A stretch of 64,000 nt of DNA from a virus: the IMG/VR virus record IMGVR_UViG_3300037515_000251, positions 7,926 through 71,925 of that record. The stretch is one strand, 5' to 3'. Every line of letters begins with the position of its first letter. Within the stretch, counting starts at the first letter, position 1. Both the position numbers and the translations under genes were made by a program. The notes beneath the pieces are model-generated. The model was not told the origin of the DNA. It searched no databases and was given only the letters and a program-made list of their open reading frames with translations. Shown here piece after piece: positions 14,503 to 47,917 of the stretch.

Positions 14503-14801
14503 TAACTAGCGAGTTGGGCTTCGATGGCCTCGATCTCTTTTCGCAGCGCAGTCTTCTTCTCGGTCGGCGTCTTGAGCAGTTCGAGTTGCTGCCGGGCCTG
14601 CCGCTGGTGCCGGATGAGATCGGCCCGAATGCGGGATTTGATTTCGACGTTCAGCGTCTCGACCGAATGCCCCACCCATTCGGGGGGATCGATCTTGAGG
14701 CGCTTATACTCGTCGGTAAGGCTCTTCGCAAACGCACTCAGGGACACCAAGCCGTCGAGTTCAAGGCGGTCAACATTGACCTGCCGGAGTTGTTCAAGCA
14801 T
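14502..14801 (-). CDS. hypothetical coiled-coil protein
   Basis: 99-aa ORF, start overlaps stop of upstream gene. Confidence 0.35.
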   Translation of the reverse strand: MLEQLRQVNVDRLELDGLVSLSAFAKSLTDEYKRLKIDPPEWVGHSVETLNVEIKSRIRADLIRHQRQARQQLELLKTPTEKKTALRKEIEAIEAQLAS

Positions 14802-16254
14802 ATGCCATCTCCTTTTTCGGTTGTTTCAACACGACTTCGAGCCGCAACAGCGGCGCGGCCATCACTTCGTCGATCAGGCTGTAGCGGTTGGTCCGCATGG
14901 TCTGAACGAGGTTCGGAATCGAATACTGATCGACTCGCTGGTTCGTCAGATCGAACATCTGAAGGTCCAATCCGGCGTGCTGCATGGCCGCTCCGAGATA
15001 GTTCGGGTCGCCCGCCAGCCGGTAGAGATATACCGGAACATCTTTGCCGGTTTTCTGCGAATACTTCTGGAACTCGACAGGGAACGCGGGGACGTTGTTC
15101 TCGCCGCCATCCGAAACGATGGCGATTCCGTCAATCTCTATCCCGCGCTCCATGATGTACTTCAACCCGCAGCCGATCGAGGTTCCGCCTTGCGCCGTGA
15201 CGAATCGCGTGAGGGTGTTGATCTCGTCGAGCGTCTTGCCGGTCACGTCGAGGTAGGTCGGCATCGTGTTGAAGAACACGAGATGGACCTTGCCGGCCGC
15301 CAGCCGTGCCAATACCCCGGCGATCTCGCGGGCGGCGGTAATCGCCGTGTGCATGGACGCGCTTTGATCGGCCAGTACAAGCCAGTCGCCCTCGACACTG
15401 GCTTTCGACAACTTCGCTTCCTGGACGGCCTTCACCTTCTCGCGCAATCCTTCGTCGTCGAGGGATTCGACCGCCTTGGTCAGCTTCAACGCCGACGATT
15501 TGCCGTCCCGCGCCTTCGACAGCGCAGCCTCAAGGGCGGAGCGCAGGGCCGGATTACTCTTGACGCCAAGCCGTTCCAGCATCTTCATGTTGTTGCCGAG
15601 CTCCGCCGGAGTCATCCGGTCGATCAGCGCAAGCAGAACATCGGTATCCTTCAGCCGCGGCCCGATCGCGCCGGCCGCGATCAGAAACGGGATACGGTGC
15701 TCGATAACGGTTGCCGCAGCTTCCGCCGGCGGAAGGTTCTTCAGGTTCGCAATGACGGCGAACACCGAGTTGGGCGGATACGAGCGCTCAAATAGAATCT
15801 TGGCCGCGAACGCCGCTGGCTTGACGTGCAGCATCGCGTAAAGCGACTTCAGGGCGGCCCGGTGCTGGACCGCTGTACGGTTCCATTGCTTGCGATCAGC
15901 TTCAAGAGAACGCAGGATTGATTCCCCGAGGCGCCGTAGCCGCCGGGACCATCGCGCTTTCGTGCCATCGCAACGCAGTGCCCGAATGAATTCGCGCGGC
16001 GGAAGCAACGCCAGATGCGCGGCGGCATTATCGGTGAATTCCGGCGCACTGGGAGATTCCAGCGCAACCAGCGGCAACGCCACCTTGCTGTCCCGCACGG
16101 TGCCCTTGATGCGGTTCCACGAGATCAGGTGAGCGTAGAACTCGGGATCGCTGGCGTGTGCTTCGCGGGCGATCGGGAAGTAGGATGCCAGATCGCGGTG
16201 AGACGACTTGGCGAGATTCGCAATGATTTGCTGCTTGGTGATGCCGGTTTCCAC
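14794..16254 (-). CDS. rsr: Ro60/Rsr-like protein (helical TROVE-like N-terminal region + C-terminal vWA domain with MIDAS motif)
   Basis: C-terminus LADQSASM…GGTSIGCGL…IVSDGGENN…YSQKTGKDVPVYLY parallels Ro60 vWA (ALDVSASM…GGTDCSLPM…FTDNETFAG…YRKKMDIPAKLIV); ~300-aa alpha-helical N-terminal domain; 486 aa. Confidence 0.55.
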   Translation of the reverse strand: METGITKQQIIANLAKSSHRDLASYFPIAREAHASDPEFYAHLISWNRIKGTVRDSKVALPLVALESPSAPEFTDNAAAHLALLPPREFIRALRCDGTKARWSRRLRRLGESILRSLEADRKQWNRTAVQHRAALKSLYAMLHVKPAAFAAKILFERSYPPNSVFAVIANLKNLPPAEAAATVIEHRIPFLIAAGAIGPRLKDTDVLLALIDRMTPAELGNNMKMLERLGVKSNPALRSALEAALSKARDGKSSALKLTKAVESLDDEGLREKVKAVQEAKLSKASVEGDWLVLADQSASMHTAITAAREIAGVLARLAAGKVHLVFFNTMPTYLDVTGKTLDEINTLTRFVTAQGGTSIGCGLKYIMERGIEIDGIAIVSDGGENNVPAFPVEFQKYSQKTGKDVPVYLYRLAGDPNYLGAAMQHAGLDLQMFDLTNQRVDQYSIPNLVQTMRTNRYSLIDEVMAAPLLRLEVVLKQPKKEMAYA

Positions 16255-16400
16255 GGGAACCCCCTTGGAGTTACGGAGAGTCGGGTCAGCGTTTTAGGCT
16301 TTGCAGGCGTGTAGGCTGTCCAGTATCCGTAAAATTAATTCGCGGAATGCCAGTAACCGCCAAACTTGATGCCGGGATGTCGATGAGCAGTTCCGCCTTG

Positions 16401-16472
16401 CGGCGTCGGCTGGATTTGAACCAGCTACCTAAAGTTTTCAAAACTTTCGCTCTACCAATGAGCTACGTGTAT
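16401..16472 (-). ncRNA. tRNA-like RNA (D-arm, anticodon-like arm with loop UUUGAAA, T-arm GCUGGUUCAAAUCCAGC) lacking a pairing acceptor stem; candidate Y RNA (YrlA-like tRNA mimic) or partial tRNA
   Basis: minus-strand sequence …ACACG-UA-GCUC-AUUGGUA-GAGC-G-AAAGU-UUUGAAA-ACUUU-AGGUA-GCUGG-UUCAAAU-CCAGC-CGACGCC-G; 5' heptamer AUACACG cannot pair with 3' CGACGCC; 3' tail forms CGCC-GCAA-GGCG GNRA hairpin; T-arm identical to tRNA at 46386. Confidence 0.5.
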
Positions 16473-16556
16473 GCTCAGCAGTGCCCGGCAAACCATTAAG
16501 TTACCACAACTGCATGATGCTGTCAAGCGCCGATGCAAAAATAATTTGGGGTCTTC

Positions 16557-24000: not shown

Positions 24001-24015
24001 GTGTCAAACTGACAC
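24001..24015. repeat. genome-wide palindrome copy
   Basis: 19 nt upstream of minus-strand ATG at 23982. Confidence 0.9.
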
Positions 24016-25050
24016 GGGAAAACGTTTCATCGCGATGAGGTCCATTAGCAGTTCCTCGGCTACCTCGCGGCTCGGCTCCAGCGGCAGCATAGAACGGTCC
24101 CGAGCGGCCTTCGCCTCCGCGAACAATTCCTCGGCGCATTCTTTCACTGTCTCGATGGACCACTCCCCGCGCTTGATGGCGAGAAGTTCATCGGCATCCC
24201 GCTCGCGGTAGACGTTGAGCGTGCCCGAGTCGAGAAACTCCCGGCACATCCTCAGCAGCCGAATGCAATGAGCGGCGTGCTTGGTGTCGTATCCGCGCTC
24301 CAGGATCAGGCGCTTGCGCTTCTCACCCAGGTAGCCGAGATTCGAGTTCTTGGAATGAAACGCCTTCAACTTATCGCGGAGATGCTGATCTTCGTGGAAC
24401 GCGAAAATGGTGGTTTCCTCAACCGGGAACTTCTCGCCGCGATGCTGCGGATGAATCCCGCGTTGCTTCATCTCGGCAACGAGTTCAAGGTAGTCCTGCA
24501 ATGTCGCCCGGTCGAGGCATTCCATCCGTTCCAACTGCCCCGCCGCGTATCCGGCGAACGGCTTGTAGACATGGCGACCGATGAACAGCGCGCGATTCGC
24601 TATGAGCAAATTGCTGAGTGGGGAAGCGACAATCCGGTGTTCGGGCCTTGTCCACAGTGAGCTCATGATGTTGGGATTCCCGGCCAGCAGCAGCGAGAAA
24701 GCCTTGCGGAGTTCGTAGAACAACAGGTCGAACTTGCCCTGCTTGGTTTCCTTGGTGCCGCGAGAACCCCATTCGGTGAGGCCGATGTAGTGCGCTTTCG
24801 GGGCCACGGCAAACCCGATCACGTCCACGTCGTCCACCGAATGCGGATCGCTCTCGGGCAGATACATGCCGTGCGCCACTGAGCCTCGAAAGGCCGCGAA
24901 GATCACATCGTCCGGCAGGATTGCGCTGAACCCGTCCATGTGTGGGATAAACGCTCGGGTGCTGGCCCCGAGTCCAGGACTCGAACCTGGATTCTCCGGT
25001 CCACAGCCGGGTGTCTTAACCTGTTGAGACGAACTCGGGATTTCATTCAT
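24004..25050 (-). CDS. pol-beta superfamily nucleotidyltransferase (GS-x9-DxD) with helical C-terminal domain
   Basis: FRGSVAHGMYLPESDPHSVDDVDVIGF minimal NTase motif; palindromic motif + GGAGA SD 11 nt upstream of ATG at 25050. Confidence 0.55.
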   Translation of the reverse strand: MNEIPSSSQQVKTPGCGPENPGSSPGLGASTRAFIPHMDGFSAILPDDVIFAAFRGSVAHGMYLPESDPHSVDDVDVIGFAVAPKAHYIGLTEWGSRGTKETKQGKFDLLFYELRKAFSLLLAGNPNIMSSLWTRPEHRIVASPLSNLLIANRALFIGRHVYKPFAGYAAGQLERMECLDRATLQDYLELVAEMKQRGIHPQHRGEKFPVEETTIFAFHEDQHLRDKLKAFHSKNSNLGYLGEKRKRLILERGYDTKHAAHCIRLLRMCREFLDSGTLNVYRERDADELLAIKRGEWSIETVKECAEELFAEAKAARDRSMLPLEPSREVAEELLMDLIAMKRFPVSV

Positions 25051-37700: not shown

Positions 37701-38113
37701 AGTATGGATGAATTTAGCCAAGAATCGTTGACGCCGTTCCAGGAGATCGCGATGTGGAGACATAAGGGGAAGGATGGGCGGCTAATGAGCCGGGAGAGGC
37801 GGTCGGCGGTGATGCGGGAGTTGGGGAAGCTGAGGCGGGGGCGTGGAGGGCGGGAGGCGACGGTGTTGCACGCGCCTGGGCCGAGAGGGGGGTGTCGGTG
37901 TGCGGAGTGCCGGCGGGGAGGTGGGTCGGCGGACAGGGGGAAGGGGAAAGAGCATGCCCCTGGGAGCGCCGGGCAGGCGCAGAAGCCGGTTTCGGTGGAG
38001 TTCGAGCGGGCGGCGGAGGGGGAATGGGAGTGAAGCCGCTGGCGCGGTACATCGCGAGGGCGTTTCGGCCGGGTTGACAGGGACGGGCCGGTTATGCAAC
38101 ACTGCTGTTGACA

Positions 38114-38784
38114 TGGCGGATGGTGCCAGACTGACACGGCGGGACGGGCGGATCGTGGAGATGCGGGCCGGGGGGATGACCTTGGCGGCGATTGGGCTTG
38201 AGTTTGGGGTAACGCGGCAGCGGGTGCGGCAGATAATCGAGAAGGCGTGCAGGGGCCGGCTGTGCGTGCGGTGCCGGCTGCCGGATGGGCGGCTGGACGG
38301 GGACGGGCTGTGCGGGAAGTGCGTGCGGCTGCTGGAGATCGTGGCGGACGATTCGCTGGCTTGCGAGGAAGCAGGCCAGAAGGCGGGTGTTTCTGGTGCG
38401 GTTGTTCAGCAGACTCGCCGGAAGTTCGGGATTCGGCATCAGTACCGGAAGCATTTCAGGGACGGTGTGCCGGAGGATGTATTCGATCCGCGGGCGAGCG
38501 CGTTGGCGCTGACACGCAAATACGGAGTTGGCAAGGGCGTTATTCAACACTTGCGAAAGAAGGCTGGGCTGGCTGGCCTACAGCGGAAGAAGCTGTTCCC
38601 ACAAAAAAGCTGGACGACTGACGAAGATCGTGTGCTTGTGGAGATGCGCCGGGCTGGCAAGACCTGGGCGGAGATTGGGGAGAGCCTGGGGCGGTCGCCT
38701 CAGGCGTGCCGGACAAGGCAGATCAACCAGCGGCGGAAGGGGATCGAAATGGGCGCGTGGCCGGAGGTCGCGGCGCCGTGCTGA
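38114..38784 (+). CDS. multi-HTH transcriptional regulator (sigma-r4-like HTH + SANT/Myb-like C-terminal repeat)
   Basis: LAAIGLEFGVTRQRVRQI HTH; C-terminal WTTDEDRVLVEMRRAGKTWAEIGESLGRSPQACRTRQ Myb-like; variant of the genome-wide palindrome (GTGCCAGACTGACAC) overlaps codons 4-8. Confidence 0.45.
38123..38137. repeat. variant palindrome copy (GTGCCAGACTGACAC)
   Basis: overlaps start of regulator gene 38114. Confidence 0.7.
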
Positions 38785-44238: not shown

Positions 44239-44379
44239 GGACATCGAAGCAGGCGGACCGTGGGCATGAATCGCACGGTGGTTCGACGACTAACCGGCGT
44301 CCGCGGCCCGTCTGCTTGGGCGTCCAGCCCGGACCCCTGAATCCGGGCGCGGCTGGCAGAGCACGGGCGCCCAACTGAA

Positions 44380-45102
44380 ATGAACGAATCGGTCAAACCG
44401 CTCGGCAAAAAGGCTTACGGCAGCATCCCGCACCTGCCGGGTAGCCGCCGTGGGCCTGGCGACCATCACTGCCATGAGGGCCAGGCGCTCATCTGCACCG
44501 AGAAGACGCGCGACAAGCACGATATCGTCAGCGTGACCGTCAAACTCGATGGCTCATGCGTGGCTGTGGCCAAAATCAATGGCCAGATCGTGGCGCTCGG
44601 CCGCGCTGGCTGGCCGGCGCAATCGTCACCCTACGAGCAGCACCAGTTGTTCGCCCACTGGGTCAGGCAGCATCACGATCGATTCAGCGGCCTGCTTGCC
44701 GAGGGGATGCGCGTCTGCGGCGAGTGGCTGGCTCAGGCCCATGGGACGCGGTATGAGTTGAATGGGCGTCAGCCGTTCGTTGCGTTTGACGTGTTCAGCC
44801 GGGATAACGAGCGGTTGCCAACGGAACATGCGCTCGACTTGATTCTGTCGTCCGGGTTGGCCGTTCCCAAGCGGCTTCAACTCTCGAATGATCCCTTGTC
44901 GATCGATGCCGCGATGGCTCTGATCGCAAACGAGTACCGCCGTGGCTATGGAGAACTCGACGAAGTAGAGGGCGCGGTCTGGCGCGTGGAGCGCCGCGGG
45001 AAGTTCGATTTTCTCGCCAAGTACGTTCGCCCAGACAAGATTGACGGGTTGTACCTGCCTGAGATTTCCGGCCAGGAACCGATTTGGAATTGGCGTCCAT
45101 GA
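44380..45102 (+). CDS. ATP-dependent RNA/DNA ligase-like nucleotidyltransferase (KxDG motif I)
   Basis: VTVKLDGSCVAV motif I; downstream EGAVWRVERRGKFDFLAKYVRPD motif V-like lysines; 240 aa fits minimal RNA-ligase size. Confidence 0.5.
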   Translation: MNESVKPLGKKAYGSIPHLPGSRRGPGDHHCHEGQALICTEKTRDKHDIVSVTVKLDGSCVAVAKINGQIVALGRAGWPAQSSPYEQHQLFAHWVRQHHDRFSGLLAEGMRVCGEWLAQAHGTRYELNGRQPFVAFDVFSRDNERLPTEHALDLILSSGLAVPKRLQLSNDPLSIDAAMALIANEYRRGYGELDEVEGAVWRVERRGKFDFLAKYVRPDKIDGLYLPEISGQEPIWNWRP

Positions 45103-45793
45103 AACTGACCGAGCACACCCCGGAAGTTCCGAATTCCCCATGGCGGACGGCGCTCTGCTACCTTTTCGGGCCGCTCTACGGCCTGATCGGCGCGATGGAC
45201 GACATCGGCGGCATCGTGGGCTTCGTGCTCGGAGCGCTGGCGATGGCGGTATTTGCAATGTGGATGCTCGGATGAGCCAGTGCCCGAAATGCGCTGGATT
45301 CGACGGGTTCCACTGGCTCGGCTGCCCGAAACTGTTCGAACAGCCTGCGCCGCATCCCGATGGAGCCGTGCTCGACGGCCCGGCTGGGCTGGTGCGGTTC
45401 CGGCAAGGAGTGAAACCGGATGAAACTCGAATGGCCGATCCTATTAGCGATTGTCGGTGCCATGTTAATCGGCTTGGCGCTGGGCGTGGTCACGGGGAGA
45501 CGTTTCCCAAAGCAGAACAAGTCGGCTCAATCAGACTGCAAAATCGAGGCCATGAACCGATTGGGAACGATCGTCGTCCGGCTCGACCAACCAGCCCCCT
45601 GCGACCCGGCCGCGATGGCAATCGAGGCTGGCACCGCCGTTAAGGCGGCGACGGAGGAATCCCAGTGAAAGCCTACAACGGATTCTATTTCGACATTCTC
45701 TGTGCTGTGGCCGCCATCGGAGGGCTTTGGCTGGCGGTGTTCGGGTGGTTGGTTGGCCTCAAGGTAGCGATGTAATTTTTCAAAAGGAGCAAC

Positions 45794-46378
45794 ATGTCAC
45801 GTAAAACACCTATCACCACAACAGTGACCGACCCCACGGGCCGCGTCCTCGCCGAAGACAAGGGCGACGGGCAGGGACTCCAGGAAGTCGGCGACAACCT
45901 CAAACAGAGCATGGCCGAGATGGTTGGCTTGCCCACCAGGTGGGTACTCTACGACGAGCACGGTGGAGAAATACTCGTACCCACCGGCCAGGACGGGAAG
46001 ATCGTCTTCAACCGCACCGGCACCGAGATGCTGAAGCACGATTTCAGCGACAAGGAACGCGCCGAGTTGTCGGCGCGCGCCGGTCAGATCGACAAGAACG
46101 CTTCCGAGTTGGAGGCGCGGCTGTCGTCACTCAAAAAGCAGATGCAGGGAGAGATCGACTCCGACCGTGCCGAAGTCTCGAATATCCTCCAGAAGTGCCG
46201 CGACGGCTACGAGTTCCGTGATTTCAGGACCGGCACGATCCTGCACTGCCCGACGAAGGGCAAGAAGATCATCGTTCGGCTGGATAACGAGCAGGTCGTC
46301 AAGGTGCTCGACATGGCTCCGCACGAGTTCCAGACGGAGATGTTCGCCGAGACGCCCGCTGAGGGTGTGGGAGAATAA
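45794..46378 (+). CDS. hypothetical protein
   Basis: 194-aa ORF immediately upstream of tRNA pair. Confidence 0.4.
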   Translation: MSRKTPITTTVTDPTGRVLAEDKGDGQGLQEVGDNLKQSMAEMVGLPTRWVLYDEHGGEILVPTGQDGKIVFNRTGTEMLKHDFSDKERAELSARAGQIDKNASELEARLSSLKKQMQGEIDSDRAEVSNILQKCRDGYEFRDFRTGTILHCPTKGKKIIVRLDNEQVVKVLDMAPHEFQTEMFAETPAEGVGE

Positions 46379-46385
46379 AGGTCTT

Positions 46386-46466
46386 CGGGGCGTAGCTCAG
46401 TCAGGCCGAAGGAGCGCTCGGTTTGGGACCGAGAGGCCGCTGGTTCAAATCCAGCCGCCCCGACCA
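46386..46466 (+). tRNA. tRNA, anticodon UGG (Pro) predicted, genomically encoded CCA, unusually long D-loop
   Basis: CGGGGCG-UA-GCUC-(13-nt loop)-GAGC-G-CUCGG-UUUGGGA-CCGAG-AGGCC-GCUGG-UUCAAAU-CCAGC-CGCCCCG-A-CCA; 7/7 acceptor pairs. Confidence 0.65.
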
Positions 46467-46476
46467 TTCGATGTAC

Positions 46477-46547
46477 TGCGGGGGCGGTGGTCGCAGCCGA
46501 GACCCATAATCTCAGCATCGCCGGTTCGATTCCGGCCCCCGCTACCA
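46477..46547 (+). tRNA. tRNA-like gene with CAU anticodon loop (Met/Ile2-like), non-canonical 5' half, encoded CCA
   Basis: T-arm GCCGG-UUCGAUU-CCGGC, 3' CCCCGCU-A-CCA, anticodon arm CGAGA-CCCAUAA-UCUCA; I could not fit a canonical D-arm/acceptor by eye. Confidence 0.4.
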
Positions 46548-46774
46548 ATCCCGTGGTAGGATATAACTTCGGCATGAAATTTGATGCCAATGATCGCGGC
46601 GAAAGCCCGGCAGCCTGAGAAGAGCGAGCGCGCCCACTACGAGAAATCGTAGCGCCACACGGCGACCCGTGGCCGGGGCGTGGAAAAGTCACAGCCAGCA
46701 ATGGTCGGCCATGTCGCCTAACCGGGTAACTGTGGGGGCTGCCGCCAAACTTTCCGGCCTACGAGACCAACCCC

Positions 46775-46789
46775 GTGTCAAACTGACAC
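46775..46789. repeat. genome-wide palindrome copy
   Basis: between tRNAs and structural block. Confidence 0.9.
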
Positions 46790-46999
46790 CGGATGTGCTA
46801 GGCTGGACTCAAGAATCGGCATTCACATGCTGGTTTCCTCCCAACGAATCAGAGTACATCGCCAAATGGCCCGGCCCACCAGCCGGGCCTATTTTTTGGT
46901 AGGATTGGAATGCACGTAAAGTCTCCTCGATAAAAACGGGACTCTGGGCCGTGGTTGTAGACGAGATCGCGATCGGCCGCGGCCCAGAACCAACAGACC

Positions 47000-47401
47000 A
47001 TGACCGGCGACCAGATCACCGACCAGGCGGCATTGGCGGTATTCTTCACCTGGGCTTTCCAGCACATCAAGGCCGCGCCGTGGGCCTCGTTCGTCGGCGA
47101 TCACGCCCCAGGCATGAGCCGTGCGCTCTCGACGGCGTTCGCCGCGCTGGTCGGTGCGGGCTTCACCTACGAGTGGACCGGCAGCGCGGAGGCGGGCTGG
47201 ACAGGATCGATCTACATCCCGCCGCTGGCCGTGCTGACGCAGTTCGGGACAACTTTCGCGATCCAGTGGTTCGGCCAGAAGGGCGCCTACAAGATCATGT
47301 ACGGGATTCCGGGCAAGCCGGAGCTGCCGAAACCCCCCGAACAGCCCAAGCAGCCGATGATTATCACCACGACGGGAGCGGCCATTCCATCGCAGCCTTG
47401 A
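47000..47401 (+). CDS. hypothetical hydrophobic protein (possible membrane/holin-like)
   Basis: 133 aa with hydrophobic segments; overlapping longer ORF 46951-47457 in other frame. Confidence 0.3.
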   Translation: MTGDQITDQAALAVFFTWAFQHIKAAPWASFVGDHAPGMSRALSTAFAALVGAGFTYEWTGSAEAGWTGSIYIPPLAVLTQFGTTFAIQWFGQKGAYKIMYGIPGKPELPKPPEQPKQPMIITTTGAAIPSQP

Positions 47402-47554
47402 CACCGCCGCCCGGCGGTGTTACCTTCATCGATAAGGACTCCCAACCGGCGGGATAGTTCGGGGCGGAACCCTCCAAGTAACACGCCTGCCGGGTCCGGT
47501 AAGCGCTTAGCACGAATTCCTGTAGCCCTTCGGGGCACGTAGGAGGCAAGCGCC

Positions 47555-47917
47555 TTGGGAGCAAACAACACGGGCCGTCACACGGTCGATGTCACGATCC
47601 CGATCAACACCGCCCTCTCGAACGCCATCCAAATCACCTTCACCGACATCGTTGGCTTCTACATGCCCGCCGCTTGGACGGCCGCCGACATCGGATTCGA
47701 GGTTTCGCACGATGGCGTAACCTACTACATCGTCAGCGATTCGGCTGGCGCCCTCGTCACGATTCCCGTTGCCGCCGACGACTTTATCACCCTGCCGGAC
47801 GGCTTCGTTCAGGGCAATAAATGGTGCCGCGTGCGGTCTCAGAACGGCGGGACTGGAGCGGCAGTCAATCAACTCGCCGCACGCACAATCAAACTCGTGA
47901 AGCGCGATCTGCGGTAG
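47555..47917 (+). CDS. hypothetical protein
   Basis: 120-aa ORF preceding large fibre-like gene. Confidence 0.35.
   Translation: MGANNTGRHTVDVTIPINTALSNAIQITFTDIVGFYMPAAWTAADIGFEVSHDGVTYYIVSDSAGALVTIPVAADDFITLPDGFVQGNKWCRVRSQNGGTGAAVNQLAARTIKLVKRDLR

What the first reader, a model, noticed from the sequence alone, without database searches (positions are those of the whole stretch)
46386..46547. Tandem phage tRNA-like genes with encoded CCA, one with UGG anticodon and one CAU-loop gene with a non-canonical 5' half
The gene at 46386-46466 folds with a perfect 7-bp acceptor, anticodon loop UUUGGGA (UGG, Pro) and an encoded CCA, but a 13-nt D-loop. The second gene (46477-46547) has a clean T-arm (GCCGG-UUCGAUU-CCGGC), a CCCAUAA anticodon loop (CAU, initiator/elongator Met or lysidine-Ile) and a 3' CCCCGCU-A-CCA. 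I could not place a canonical D-arm and acceptor by eye, possibly a 1-72 mismatch as in initiator tRNA or a structural oddity. Phage tRNAs next to an RNA ligase and Ro60-like gene suggest a translation-supply or tRNA-repair theme.
Basis: seen in the sequence. Interest (0 to 1): 0.5.

Follow-up and report, generated by a model that had tools for sequence, protein, structure and literature searches.

The report
Compact initiator-type phage tRNA-Met gene
Next to an ordinary phage tRNA-Pro gene sits a shortened methionine tRNA gene that standard finders miss; it belongs to a widespread but apparently undescribed class of compact, initiator-like tRNAs carried by phages.

Summary
Both genes are real. 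Gene 1 (46386-46466) is a tRNA-Pro(UGG) with an enlarged D-loop and encoded CCA, called by ARAGORN and Rfam. Gene 2 (46477-47547 region: 46477-46547) is missed by ARAGORN at default settings and by Rfam. It still parses cleanly:
- acceptor with a U1·U72 mismatch plus six G-C pairs, A73 and CCA
- no 8-9 connector
- 4-bp mini D-stem with a 3-nt loop
- 6-bp anticodon stem, loop CCCAUAA (CAU anticodon, C33)
- 4-nt variable loop and a perfect T-arm

This is not a one-off defect. Half lie beside other tRNAs, and cultured Bacillus phages carry them annotated as tRNA-Met. The compact cloverleaf covaries strongly. A model built without the window's sequence scores gene 2 at 66 bits; the neighbouring tRNA-Pro scores 17.

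The class has initiator hallmarks: 1-72 unpaired or weak, A73, G2-C71/C3-G70/G4-C69, and a conserved G30-C40.

The tRNA pair is a lineage-specific cassette, and a nearby RNA ligase gene is another lineage-specific gain. The Ro60-like gene lies 30 kb away, with its own Y-RNA-like element.

Function in initiation is inferred, not shown.

The parts
46386..46466 (+). tRNA-Pro(UGG), 81 nt including encoded CCA (46464-46466), with a 13-nt D-loop
   Evidence: ARAGORN; Rfam RF00005 62.6 bits; cloverleaf MFE; ARAGORN drawing
46467..46476 (+). 10-nt spacer between the two tRNA genes (UUCGAUGUAC); no promoter-like site was found nearby, which fits co-transcription
   Evidence: sequence; no promoter-like site in 45500-47500
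46477..46547 (+). Compact initiator-type tRNA-Met(CAU) gene, 68 nt plus CCA
   Evidence: R2 66.2 bits, full length; R1 48.8 bits; ARAGORN -ps90 and -mt modes; no call by ARAGORN default or Rfam
46477..46483 (+). Acceptor 5' strand UGCGGGG. It pairs with 46537-46543 (CCCCGCU): U1.U72 mismatch plus six G-C pairs.
   Evidence: sequence; table; alignment
46484..46494 (+). Mini D-arm GCGG-UGG-UCGC (or GCG-GUGGU-CGC), following the acceptor with no 8-9 connector
   Evidence: constrained fold; class hairpin statistics; covariation of the class D-stem; R2 alignment
46497..46515 (+). Anticodon arm: 6-bp stem CCGAGA/UCUCAG with one C.A mismatch, loop CCCAUAA (C33), anticodon CAU at 46505-46507. Pairs 29-41/30-40/31-39 are A-U/G-C/A-U.
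   Evidence: sequence; R2 alignment
46520..46536 (+). T-arm GCCGG-UUCGAUU-CCGGC
   Evidence: sequence; identical in L002
46544..46547 (+). Discriminator A73 and encoded CCA
   Evidence: sequence
46347..46772 (+). Lineage-specific cassette: new C-terminus of the upstream ORF, tRNA-Pro, compact tRNA-Met and a ~225-nt tail with no detected ORF or structure. Absent from relatives at ~77% protein identity.
   Evidence: blastn breakpoints 46346 and 46773; relatives have no tRNAs; tail fold z=-0.8 and no convincing ORF
46775..46789 (+). Copy of the repeated 15-nt near-palindrome GTGTCAAACTGACAC, marking the right junction of the cassette
   Evidence: 19 copies with <=1 mismatch, 0 expected by chance
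46868..46889 (+). Intrinsic-terminator-like hairpin with a T-run, downstream of the cassette and conserved in relatives
   Evidence: homologous region in L061 and L062
44380..45102 (+). RNA ligase (PF09414), 1.3 kb upstream and also absent from relative L059. Associated only by context.
   Evidence: Pfam 1.5e-19; PHROG hits; the L059 alignment jumps from 44372 to 45137

Best explanation
Gene 2 is a functional tRNA gene of a compact-core, initiator-type tRNA-Met(CAU) class that is common in phages. It is probably co-transcribed with the upstream tRNA-Pro and released by the host's RNase P and 3' processing; its CCA is encoded. Shown here: it has the class architecture, namely acceptor, 0-1 connector nucleotide, 3-4 bp D-stem with a 3-5 nt GG loop, 6-bp anticodon stem, short variable loop and normal T-arm. 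That architecture is kept in place by compensatory changes across many unrelated phages. Inferred: MetRS charges it through the CAU anticodon. The unpaired 1-72 together with A73, G2-C71, C3-G70 and G4-C69 makes it a substrate for methionyl-tRNA formyltransferase and a poor one for EF-Tu. The retained G30-C40 in a purine:pyrimidine context lets it enter the ribosomal P site. On this reading it supplies initiator tRNA during infection. More speculative: its altered core and anticodon arm (C33, A31-U39) make it insensitive to host toxins that attack the cellular initiator tRNA. That idea fits the RNA ligase gained by the same lineage.
For: Class membership: R2, built without the window's sequence, gives 66.2 bits end to end, against 74.5 for the annotated tRNA-Met of Bacillus phage Goe3 and 16.9/21.3 for the window's tRNA-Pro and tRNA-His. 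Of these, 37 lie within 300 nt of another tRNA, 41 are called tRNA-Met by default ARAGORN and 68 at the 90% threshold. Structure: on a MAFFT alignment 89.6% of cells pair versus 65.1% in shuffles (0/500), the covariation score is 0.625 versus 0.162 shuffled and 0.08-0.13 in slid registers, and all four mini-D-stem pairs change on both sides. The unfiltered set of 74 behaves the same way. A D-stem of >=4 bp occurs in 59% of members versus 25% of shuffles. Initiator marks: 1-72 is unpaired in 65% and G-C in only 2 of 75, A73 occurs in 63 of 75, and G30-C40 is G-C in 69 of 74. Published rules: formylation determinants (PMC9976931) and the sufficiency of G30-C40 (PMC5389676). Viability of a compact core: tRNAPyl, including forms that lack U8 and have a bulged anticodon stem, works in E. 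coli (PMC11467909). Closest homologues L002 and L041 keep all helices, with compensatory changes at 7-66 and 51-63 and three different 1-72 mismatches.
Against: There are no expression, charging or formylation data. Default ARAGORN and Rfam do not call gene 2. All copies of this phage are identical and the next relatives lack the cassette, so this particular copy cannot be shown to be under selection. It lacks the full three G-C pairs of cellular initiators. It has C33, which is rare in the class (10 of 75), and a C.A mismatch in the outer anticodon stem. The unconstrained MFE fold (-32.7 kcal/mol) is not the cloverleaf (-30.2 kcal/mol). Part of the model scores comes from the motifs used to collect the class. 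The 42 sequences used to build R2 were pre-selected for having a hairpin.
Confidence: 0.65

Rival explanations
1. It is a functional compact tRNA with a different identity: an elongator tRNA-Met, or a tRNA-Ile2 whose C34 is converted to lysidine so that it reads AUA.
For: The CAU anticodon alone cannot separate the three identities. 26 of 75 class members do have a pair at 1-72, mostly U-A or A-U. GenBank labels relatives simply as tRNA-Met.
Against: U1.U72 is unpaired here, and 1-72 shows no pairing constraint across the class (35% paired versus 31% in shuffles); elongators need that pair for EF-Tu. The acceptor xGCGGGG/CCCCGCx-A matches that of initiators. AUA accounts for only 13 of 538 Ile codons in the window's genes. 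From memory, the E. coli lysidine-synthetase determinants C4-G69 and C5-G68 are absent here (G4-C69, G5-C68).
Confidence: 0.12
2. It is a decaying pseudogene: a once-normal phage tRNA-Met that lost nucleotides 8-11 and no longer functions.
For: Against the canonical C33 model R1 it aligns with a 4-nt deletion at positions 8-11. Its closest sequence relative, L002, is 76 nt long. Standard finders reject it. No diverged copy of this cassette exists to show conservation.
Against: The same shortened architecture recurs in at least 75 distinct phage sequences with covarying stems. Gene 2 fits the compact model 17 bits better than the canonical one. All of its helices, A73 and CCA are intact, whereas decay should hit every arm. 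A connector of zero nucleotides is common in the class (28 of 61 parsed members).
Confidence: 0.12
3. It is a tRNA mimic that does not act in translation. It could be a decoy or inhibitor for a host tRNA-targeting nuclease or toxin, or a processing handle for neighbouring RNA.
For: The same phage carries a clear tRNA mimic elsewhere, the Y-RNA-like element at 16406-16467. The lineage gained an RNA ligase nearby. Phage tRNAs that neutralise defence systems are documented (PMC10264068; papers listed).
Against: It keeps a complete set of identity elements that a decoy would not need together: a CAU anticodon in a 7-nt loop, A73, CCA and a conserved G30-C40. Class members sit as ordinary units inside tRNA arrays. 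The downstream 225 nt shows no structure or ORF to process.
Confidence: 0.08
4. It is an attP-type fragment: the 3' part of a host tRNA gene carried by a temperate phage as its integration site.
For: The 3' half is clean while the 5' half looks odd, which is the usual signature of an attP core.
Against: The 5' acceptor strand is present and complementary. No integrase or recombinase was found among the window's sizeable ORFs. No bacterial genome carries a matching tRNA. The element is part of a cassette alongside an intact tRNA-Pro.
Confidence: 0.01

Closest known systems
Bacterial initiator tRNA(fMet)
   Same: CAU anticodon, unpaired 1-72, A73, G2-C71, C3-G70, G4-C69 and G30-C40. The acceptor xGCGGGG/CCCCGCx differs from my recollection of the E. 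coli initiator acceptor only at positions 1 and 72.
   Different: U.U instead of C.A at 1-72. Only the middle of the three anticodon-stem G-C pairs is kept (A-U/G-C/A-U). C33 instead of U33. The D-arm is compact, with no U8/N9 connector and a 3-nt loop. Formylation and P-site use are untested.
tRNA-Met genes annotated in cultured phages (e.g. Bacillus phage vB_BsuM-Goe3, KY368640 32240-32307; crAss-like cr85_1)
   Same: Same compact architecture (Goe3: 68 nt, A connector, GAAU-UGGU-AUUC D-arm, 6-bp anticodon stem). Goe3 scores 74.5 bits on R2, against 66.2 for gene 2.
   Different: Goe3 has U33 and a U1-A72 pair, and no encoded CCA. Gene 2 has C33, U.U at 1-72 and an encoded CCA. The records say only 'tRNA-Met' (one says tRNA-OTHER, some have no annotation). 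I found no description of the architecture or its initiator features.
tRNAPyl, including the deltaN class that lacks U8; from memory also mitochondrial tRNASer(UCN)
   Same: The same set of core reductions: short D-loop, 0-1 connector nucleotide, lengthened or bulged anticodon stem, short variable loop. These tRNAs are nevertheless L-shaped and active on bacterial ribosomes (PMC11467909).
   Different: Unrelated in sequence and identity (CUA or UGA-type anticodons, dedicated synthetase or mitochondrial factors). The resemblance concerns how a compact core can work. It is not membership.
Closest sequence relatives L002 (IMGVR_UViG_3300014822_000022) and L041 (IMGVR_UViG_3300030616_000016)
   Same: L002 has an identical anticodon arm and T-arm. 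All three share the GGUGGUC D-loop motif, C33, a 1-72 mismatch, A73 and encoded CCA.
   Different: Both relatives are 76 nt long with a longer, weakly paired D region. L002 has its own sigma-70-like promoter placing the transcription start at +1 (seen by eye). L041 sits inside a jumbo-phage tRNA array.

Membership tests
Canonical tRNA (Rfam RF00005 / ARAGORN default) | Score at or above the family or program threshold | tested here: not met
   No ARAGORN call. No RF00005 hit at gathering or at E<=10. Called only at ARAGORN -ps90 or in -mt mode.
Canonical tRNA (Rfam RF00005 / ARAGORN default) | 7-bp acceptor stem, discriminator base, T-arm with a 5-bp stem and UUCRANY loop | tested here: met
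   Six G-C pairs plus U.U, A73, CCA; GCCGG-UUCGAUU-CCGGC.
Canonical tRNA (Rfam RF00005 / ARAGORN default) | U8/N9 connector and a D-arm with a D-loop of 7 nt or more | tested here: not met
   Only 14 nt lie between the acceptor stem and position 27. There is no connector, and the hairpin is 4 bp with a 3-nt loop.
Canonical tRNA (Rfam RF00005 / ARAGORN default) | U33 in a 7-nt anticodon loop | tested here: not met
   The loop is CCCAUAA, so position 33 is C. C33 occurs in 10 of 75 class members and in a few cellular initiators.
Bacterial initiator tRNA(fMet) | CAU anticodon | tested here: met
   46505-46507.
Bacterial initiator tRNA(fMet) | Unpaired 1-72, the major formylation determinant (PMC9976931) | tested here: met
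   U77.U43. The class shows no pairing constraint at 1-72, and G-C occurs in only 2 of 75.
Bacterial initiator tRNA(fMet) | A73, G2-C71, C3-G70, G4-C69, the minor formylation determinants | tested here: met
   All are present; the rule is taken.
Bacterial initiator tRNA(fMet) | Three consecutive G-C pairs at 29-41, 30-40 and 31-39 | tested here: not met
   The pairs are A-U/G-C/A-U. Only G30-C40 is kept, and that pair alone can suffice in E. coli (PMC5389676). It is G-C in 69 of 74 class members.
Bacterial initiator tRNA(fMet) | R11:Y24 pair in the D-stem | tested here: inconclusive
   The D-stem is re-registered (GCGG/UCGC), so positions 11 and 24 cannot be assigned with confidence.
Bacterial initiator tRNA(fMet) | Formylation by Fmt, IF2/P-site binding, rejection by EF-Tu | not testable with these tools
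   These are biochemical properties.
Compact phage CAU tRNA class (defined here, model R2) | Full-length match to R2, well above the scores of other tRNAs | tested here: met
   66.2 bits, model positions 1-69. tRNA-Pro scores 16.9 and tRNA-His 21.3.
Compact phage CAU tRNA class (defined here, model R2) | Offset of 27-30 nt from position 1 to C34; 0-2 nt connector; 3-5 bp D-stem with a short GG loop; 5-7 bp anticodon stem | tested here: met
   Offset 28, connector 0, GCGG-UGG-UCGC, and a 6-bp stem with one mismatch.
tRNA-Ile2 (lysidine) | Need for AUA decoding; acceptor determinants for TilS (E. coli C4-G69 and C5-G68, from memory) | tested here: not met
   AUA is 2.4% of Ile codons. The acceptor has G4-C69 and G5-C68.
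attP tRNA fragment | Only the 3' part of a host tRNA is present, with an integrase nearby and a matching host tRNA | tested here: not met
   The 5' acceptor strand is present. No integrase was found. No matching genome tRNA was found.
Bacterial/phage Y RNA (YrlA-type tRNA mimic) | Acceptor replaced by a long Ro-binding stem; located next to an rsr/Ro60 gene | tested here: not met
   Gene 2 has a normal acceptor with CCA and lies 30 kb from the Ro-type ORF. A separate element at 16406-16467 fits that description.
tmRNA (one-piece or permuted) | tRNA-Ala-like domain plus a tag reading frame | tested here: not met
   ARAGORN finds no tmRNA. Only the T-arm matches tmRNA models, at 12-15 bits.

The most novel reading that the evidence does not exclude
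Phages widely encode their own structurally compact initiator tRNA, built differently from the host's (mini D-arm, altered anticodon stem, sometimes C33). This would keep translation initiation running when host toxins or defence nucleases destroy or block the cellular tRNA(fMet), or would relax start-site selection in the phage's favour. In this window it would have been acquired together with a tRNA-Pro and, separately, an RNA ligase, forming a counter-defence module.
Probability: 0.3. Interest if true: 0.75.

Novelty: new variant of a known kind. Interest (0 to 1): 0.55.

Why it matters
Reduced D-arms in working tRNAs are textbook oddities of animal mitochondria and of tRNAPyl. Finding the same solution repeatedly in phage initiator-like tRNAs, about half of which default gene finders miss, would have three consequences. 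Phage tRNA censuses undercount a whole class. Phages may commonly bring their own initiator tRNA, a step of translation not usually thought to be supplied by phages. And there is a natural, testable set of compact tRNAs that bacterial MetRS, formyltransferase, IF2 and ribosomes presumably accept. Cultured Bacillus phages that carry the class make the experiments straightforward.

Tried and rejected
1. **Recent deletion pseudogene.** I first read gene 2 as a tRNA-Met that had lost positions 8-11. I dropped this once the same short architecture turned up in many unrelated phages with covarying stems.
2. **attP fragment.** Rejected: no integrase, no host match, and the 5' acceptor strand is present.
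3. **Y RNA linked to the Ro60-like gene.** Rejected for gene 2. That gene is 30 kb away and has its own tRNA-like element.
4. **tmRNA or permuted tmRNA.** Rejected.
5. **Searches for the exact sub-family** (GGUGGUC motif plus C33) found only L002 and L041. Metagenome and genome scans were empty.
6. **Search for the cassette donor** through the tRNA-Pro D-loop found nothing. The blastn search of deposited phages matched only generic tRNA-Pro.
7. **Short hits in bacterial genomes.** L071 and L075 were a chance match and a degenerate remnant.
8. **The 225-nt cassette tail** shows no significant fold and no convincing ORF.
9. **RNA ligase and Ro-type ORF.** PDB and NCBIfam searches gave no closer assignment.
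10. **Host codon-usage comparison** could not be done because the host is unknown. Only the phage's own usage was computed.
11. **Same-phage copies** from seven samples were identical across the genes, so they gave no evolutionary signal.

Full report
**Observation**

ARAGORN calls a tRNA-Pro(UGG) at 46386-46466, and Rfam's tRNA model scores it at 62.6 bits. It has a perfect 7-bp acceptor, the loop UUUGGGA, a 13-nt D-loop and an encoded CCA.

The second element, 46477-46547, is not called by ARAGORN at default settings. It gets no Rfam tRNA hit at gathering score or at E<=10; only its T-arm matches tmRNA models, at 12-15 bits.

**Anatomy of gene 2**

- The 3' strand CCCCGCU (46537-46543) pairs with UGCGGGG (46477-46483): six G-C pairs and a U1·U72 mismatch, followed by A73 and CCA.
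- The T-arm GCCGG-UUCGAUU-CCGGC is perfect.
- The anticodon loop is CCCAUAA, so the anticodon is CAU and position 33 is C rather than the near-universal U.
- Only 14 nt separate the acceptor stem from position 27, where a normal tRNA has about 19.
- With acceptor and T-arm forced, the best fold is a reduced cloverleaf with a mini D-hairpin directly after the acceptor and a lengthened anticodon stem. Its energy is -30.2 kcal/mol, against an unconstrained MFE of -32.7.
- Local ARAGORN runs agree. At the 90% threshold it reports tRNA-Met(CAU) with a strained acceptor register. In its D-armless mode it reports a 'D-loop tRNA-Met(cat)' with a perfect acceptor.

**Relatives of the element**

Exact-pattern scans found one viral contig, L002, with an identical anticodon arm and T-arm. 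ARAGORN calls that 76-nt copy tRNA-Met, but Rfam does not reach threshold on it either. A third member, L041, sits uncalled inside a jumbo-phage tRNA array.

The three share C33, A73, CCA and the motif GGUGGUC. They show compensatory changes at 7-66 and 51-63, and each has a different mismatch at 1-72: U·U, G·A and C·U. This narrow sub-family is absent from the metagenome and genome collections.

More broadly, 57 viral contigs carry a CCCAUAA loop followed by a T-arm. About half of the distinct sequences combine an xGCGGG acceptor with a 1-72 mismatch, A73 and G30-C40. Only about three bacterial MAGs carry such genes, and two of those are clear cellular initiators with C1·A72 and GC/GC/gu.

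A model of the canonical C33 genes (R1) aligns gene 2 end to end at 48.8 bits, with positions 8-11 deleted. At that stage a recently damaged copy looked as likely as a functional variant.

**The turning point**

A scan for the commoner U33 initiator-like genes returned at least 120 contigs. A minority had spans too short for any canonical tRNA. By eye these had the same layout as gene 2, with different sequences in the mini D-stem:

| Element | Mini D-hairpin |
|---|---|
| window gene 2 | GCG-GUGGU-CGC |
| L153 | GGC-GUGGU-GCC |
| L188 | GGGC-GUGGU-GCUC |
| L102 | GCC-UGGGAA-GGC |
| L077 | GAU-UGGU-AUC |

It gave 75 distinct sequences with intact acceptor stems:

- The offset from position 1 to C34 is 27-30 nt. 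The window's is 28; canonical genes have 32-35.
- A73 occurs in 63 of 75, and CCA is encoded in 49 of 75.
- C33 occurs in 10 of 75.
- 1-72 is unpaired in 65% and is a G-C pair in only 2.

A hairpin of at least 4 bp starting within 2 nt of the acceptor occurs in 59% of members, against 25% of shuffled controls, with 53 distinct stem sequences. A zero-nucleotide connector is as common as a one-nucleotide connector.

Default ARAGORN of the 75 as tRNA-Met, and 68 at the 90% threshold. Thirty-seven lie within 300 nt of another tRNA, often in large arrays.

Cultured phages carry the type. Several SPO1-like Bacillus phages and a crAss-like phage have it annotated tRNA-Met, once as tRNA-OTHER, and sometimes it is unannotated. 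Goe3's 68-nt gene has exactly this layout.

**Structure test**

The test used a MAFFT alignment of 42 members, which was not fitted to any structure.

| Measure | Observed | Shuffled | Slid registers |
|---|---|---|---|
| Cells forming a standard pair | 89.6% | 65.1% (0 of 500 shuffles reach the observed value) | 39-51% |
| Covariation score | 0.625 | 0.162 | 0.08-0.13 |

All four D-stem pairs and all six anticodon-stem pairs change on both sides.

Those 42 had been pre-selected for having a hairpin, so I repeated the count on all 74 unfiltered sequences:

- D-stem pairs: 75, 81, 59 and 57% paired, versus 53, 43, 35 and 36% in shuffles.
- T-stem pairs: 95-100% paired.
- 1-72: 35% paired versus 31% in shuffles, so there is no pairing constraint.
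- G30-C40: G-C in 69 of 74, while the flanking pairs vary.

A covariance model of the class (R2), built without the window's sequence, scores as follows:

| Sequence | R2 score (bits) |
|---|---|
| Goe3 annotated tRNA-Met | 74.5 |
| window gene 2 | 66.2 |
| L002 | 56.2 |
| L041 | 46.9 |
| window tRNA-His | 21.3 |
| window tRNA-Pro | 16.9 |

Gene 2 aligns over the full length of the model. It differs only by the missing connector nucleotide and by two non-standard pairs, 1-72 and one C·A. It is therefore a good member of a real, structured class, not a broken one-off.

**Identity**

The published formylation determinants are an unpaired 1-72 (major), A73, G2-C71, C3-G70 and G4-C69 (minor), plus R11:Y24 (PMC9976931). 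Gene 2 has all the acceptor-stem elements. R11:Y24 cannot be assigned in the re-registered D-stem.

Cellular initiators have three G-C pairs in the anticodon stem. Gene 2 has A-U/G-C/A-U. Experiments show that the middle pair G30-C40, or G30 in a purine:pyrimidine context, is enough to sustain E. coli (PMC5389676). That is the one anticodon-stem pair the class conserves.

A lysidine tRNA-Ile2 is unlikely. AUA is only 13 of 538 Ile codons in the window's genes, and the acceptor resembles that of initiators. Elongator use is disfavoured by the unpaired 1-72.

The compact core has a functional precedent. tRNAPyl has a 5-nt D-loop and a 3-nt variable loop. Its ΔN-class relatives also lack U8 and carry a bulge in the anticodon stem, yet they work in E. 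coli translation (PMC11467909).

Charging, formylation and P-site use remain inferences.

**Genomic context**

The window is a 61% G+C phage genome with no close deposited relative. At least seven metagenome contigs carry the same phage. They are identical across 45794-47600 except for one SNP at 46693, outside the genes.

Relatives whose upstream 194-aa protein is about 77% identical have no tRNAs at this position. Homology stops at 46346 and resumes at 46773. So 46347-46772 is a lineage-specific cassette containing tRNA-Pro, the compact tRNA-Met and a 225-nt tail with no ORF or significant fold.

The right junction is a copy of GTGTCAAACTGACAC. This motif has 19 copies in the window (with at most one mismatch; none expected by chance) and also marks module junctions in the relatives.

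The RNA ligase 1.3 kb upstream (PF09414) is likewise missing from relative L059. This lineage therefore gained both the ligase and the tRNAs. That fits a tRNA supply/repair or counter-defence theme (PMC10264068), but it does not prove one.

No integrase was found and no host tRNA matches the element, which rules out an attP fragment. It is unrelated to gene 2.

**Verdict**

Gene 2 is most likely a working, compact, initiator-type tRNA-Met (confidence 0.65). Smaller possibilities are that it has another CAU identity, is decaying, or acts as a mimic.

Relatives are already labelled tRNA-Met in databases, so the kind is known. I found no description of the compact architecture, its initiator marks or its breadth in phages. 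Subscription literature was not searchable. I rate it a new variant of a known kind, of moderate interest.

Noticed in passing
window 16370-16490 (- strand), with ORF 14794-16254 (-): A tRNA-like core at 16467-16407 (Rfam tRNA 52.6 bits, but only model positions 6-65; not called by ARAGORN) has a D-arm, an anticodon-like arm (loop UUUGAAA) and a T-arm, but no acceptor stem. Flanking sequences instead form a long stem (GCCGGG...UGAGCA / UGCUCA...CCCGGC). It lies behind a TTGACA promoter-like site and directly upstream of a vWA protein that hits PHROG 850, 'RNA-binding protein'. This looks like a phage Y RNA (YrlA type) paired with a Ro60/Rsr-like gene. No Rfam Y-RNA family matched, and neither a Pfam TROVE domain nor a PDB sequence hit was found for the protein.
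   Followed up: partly
window, 19 sites (e.g. 12637, 14236, 24001, 25062, 28554, 34733, 36368, 42118, 44224, 46775, 59948): The 15-nt near-palindrome GTG[T/C]CAAACTGACAC occurs 19 times with at most one mismatch (0 expected by chance). It is mostly intergenic and also sits at module junctions in relatives L059, L061 and L062. It brackets the RlaP + tRNA-His unit (24001/25062) and the RNA-ligase-to-tRNA module (44224/46775). It is probably a phage operator or promoter element and a hotspot for mosaic exchange. A sigma-70 region-4/Myb-like protein at 37843-38784 is a candidate reader.
   Followed up: partly
window 24963-25039 (-) and ORF 24004-24960 (-): The tRNA-His(GUG) has C1-G72, a G at position 73 and a U at -1, so it lacks the encoded G-1:C73 that bacterial HisRS normally needs. 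It lies immediately upstream of an RlaP-family (PF10127, 'RNA repair pathway') nucleotidyltransferase gene.
   Followed up: no
window 44380-45102 (+): A small (240 aa) PF09414 RNA ligase is a lineage-specific insertion, absent from relative L059. It has no PDB or NCBIfam match.
   Followed up: partly
L015, L018, L024, L025, L027, L029, L035, L038-L040, L042, L043, L047-L049, L056 (IMG/VR contigs of 27-166 kb): A nearly identical CAU/C33 tRNA-like gene (…GCAGGCGAGUGGAACGGAUUACUACGUCAGACCCAUAAUCUGA…CUGGGUUCGACUCCCAGGCUCUGCA) recurs in about 16 contigs. In most of them it lies about 310 nt from a tRNA-Gln. ARAGORN calls none of them. The acceptor has two or three mismatches near the T-stem end.
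   Followed up: no
L002 7999-8033: The homologous tRNA in L002 has its own near-consensus sigma-70 promoter (TTGACC, 16 nt, TATAAT). This would place the transcription start at about position +1 of the tRNA, so the 5' end might need no RNase P cleavage.
   Followed up: no
L072 (Luteolibacter MAG) and L073 (Parcubacteria MAG): These are cellular initiator tRNAs (C1.A72, GC/GC/gu anticodon stem) with C33 in the loop CCCAUAA. That is a rare departure from U33 in bacteria: only 6 pattern hits in 185,579 species genomes.
   Followed up: no
window 46548-46772: The 225-nt tail of the tRNA cassette has no convincing ORF, no significant fold (z=-0.8) and no homologue. The hairpin AUCC-CGUGGUA-GGAU right after the CCA looks like a D-arm. 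The region's origin is unexplained.
   Followed up: partly
L041 12239-12313 (-): The jumbo phage that carries the L041 element also has a second initiator-like CAU gene with U33 and an A1.C72 mismatch, plus an elongator-type tRNA-Met. One phage can therefore carry three CAU tRNAs.
   Followed up: no
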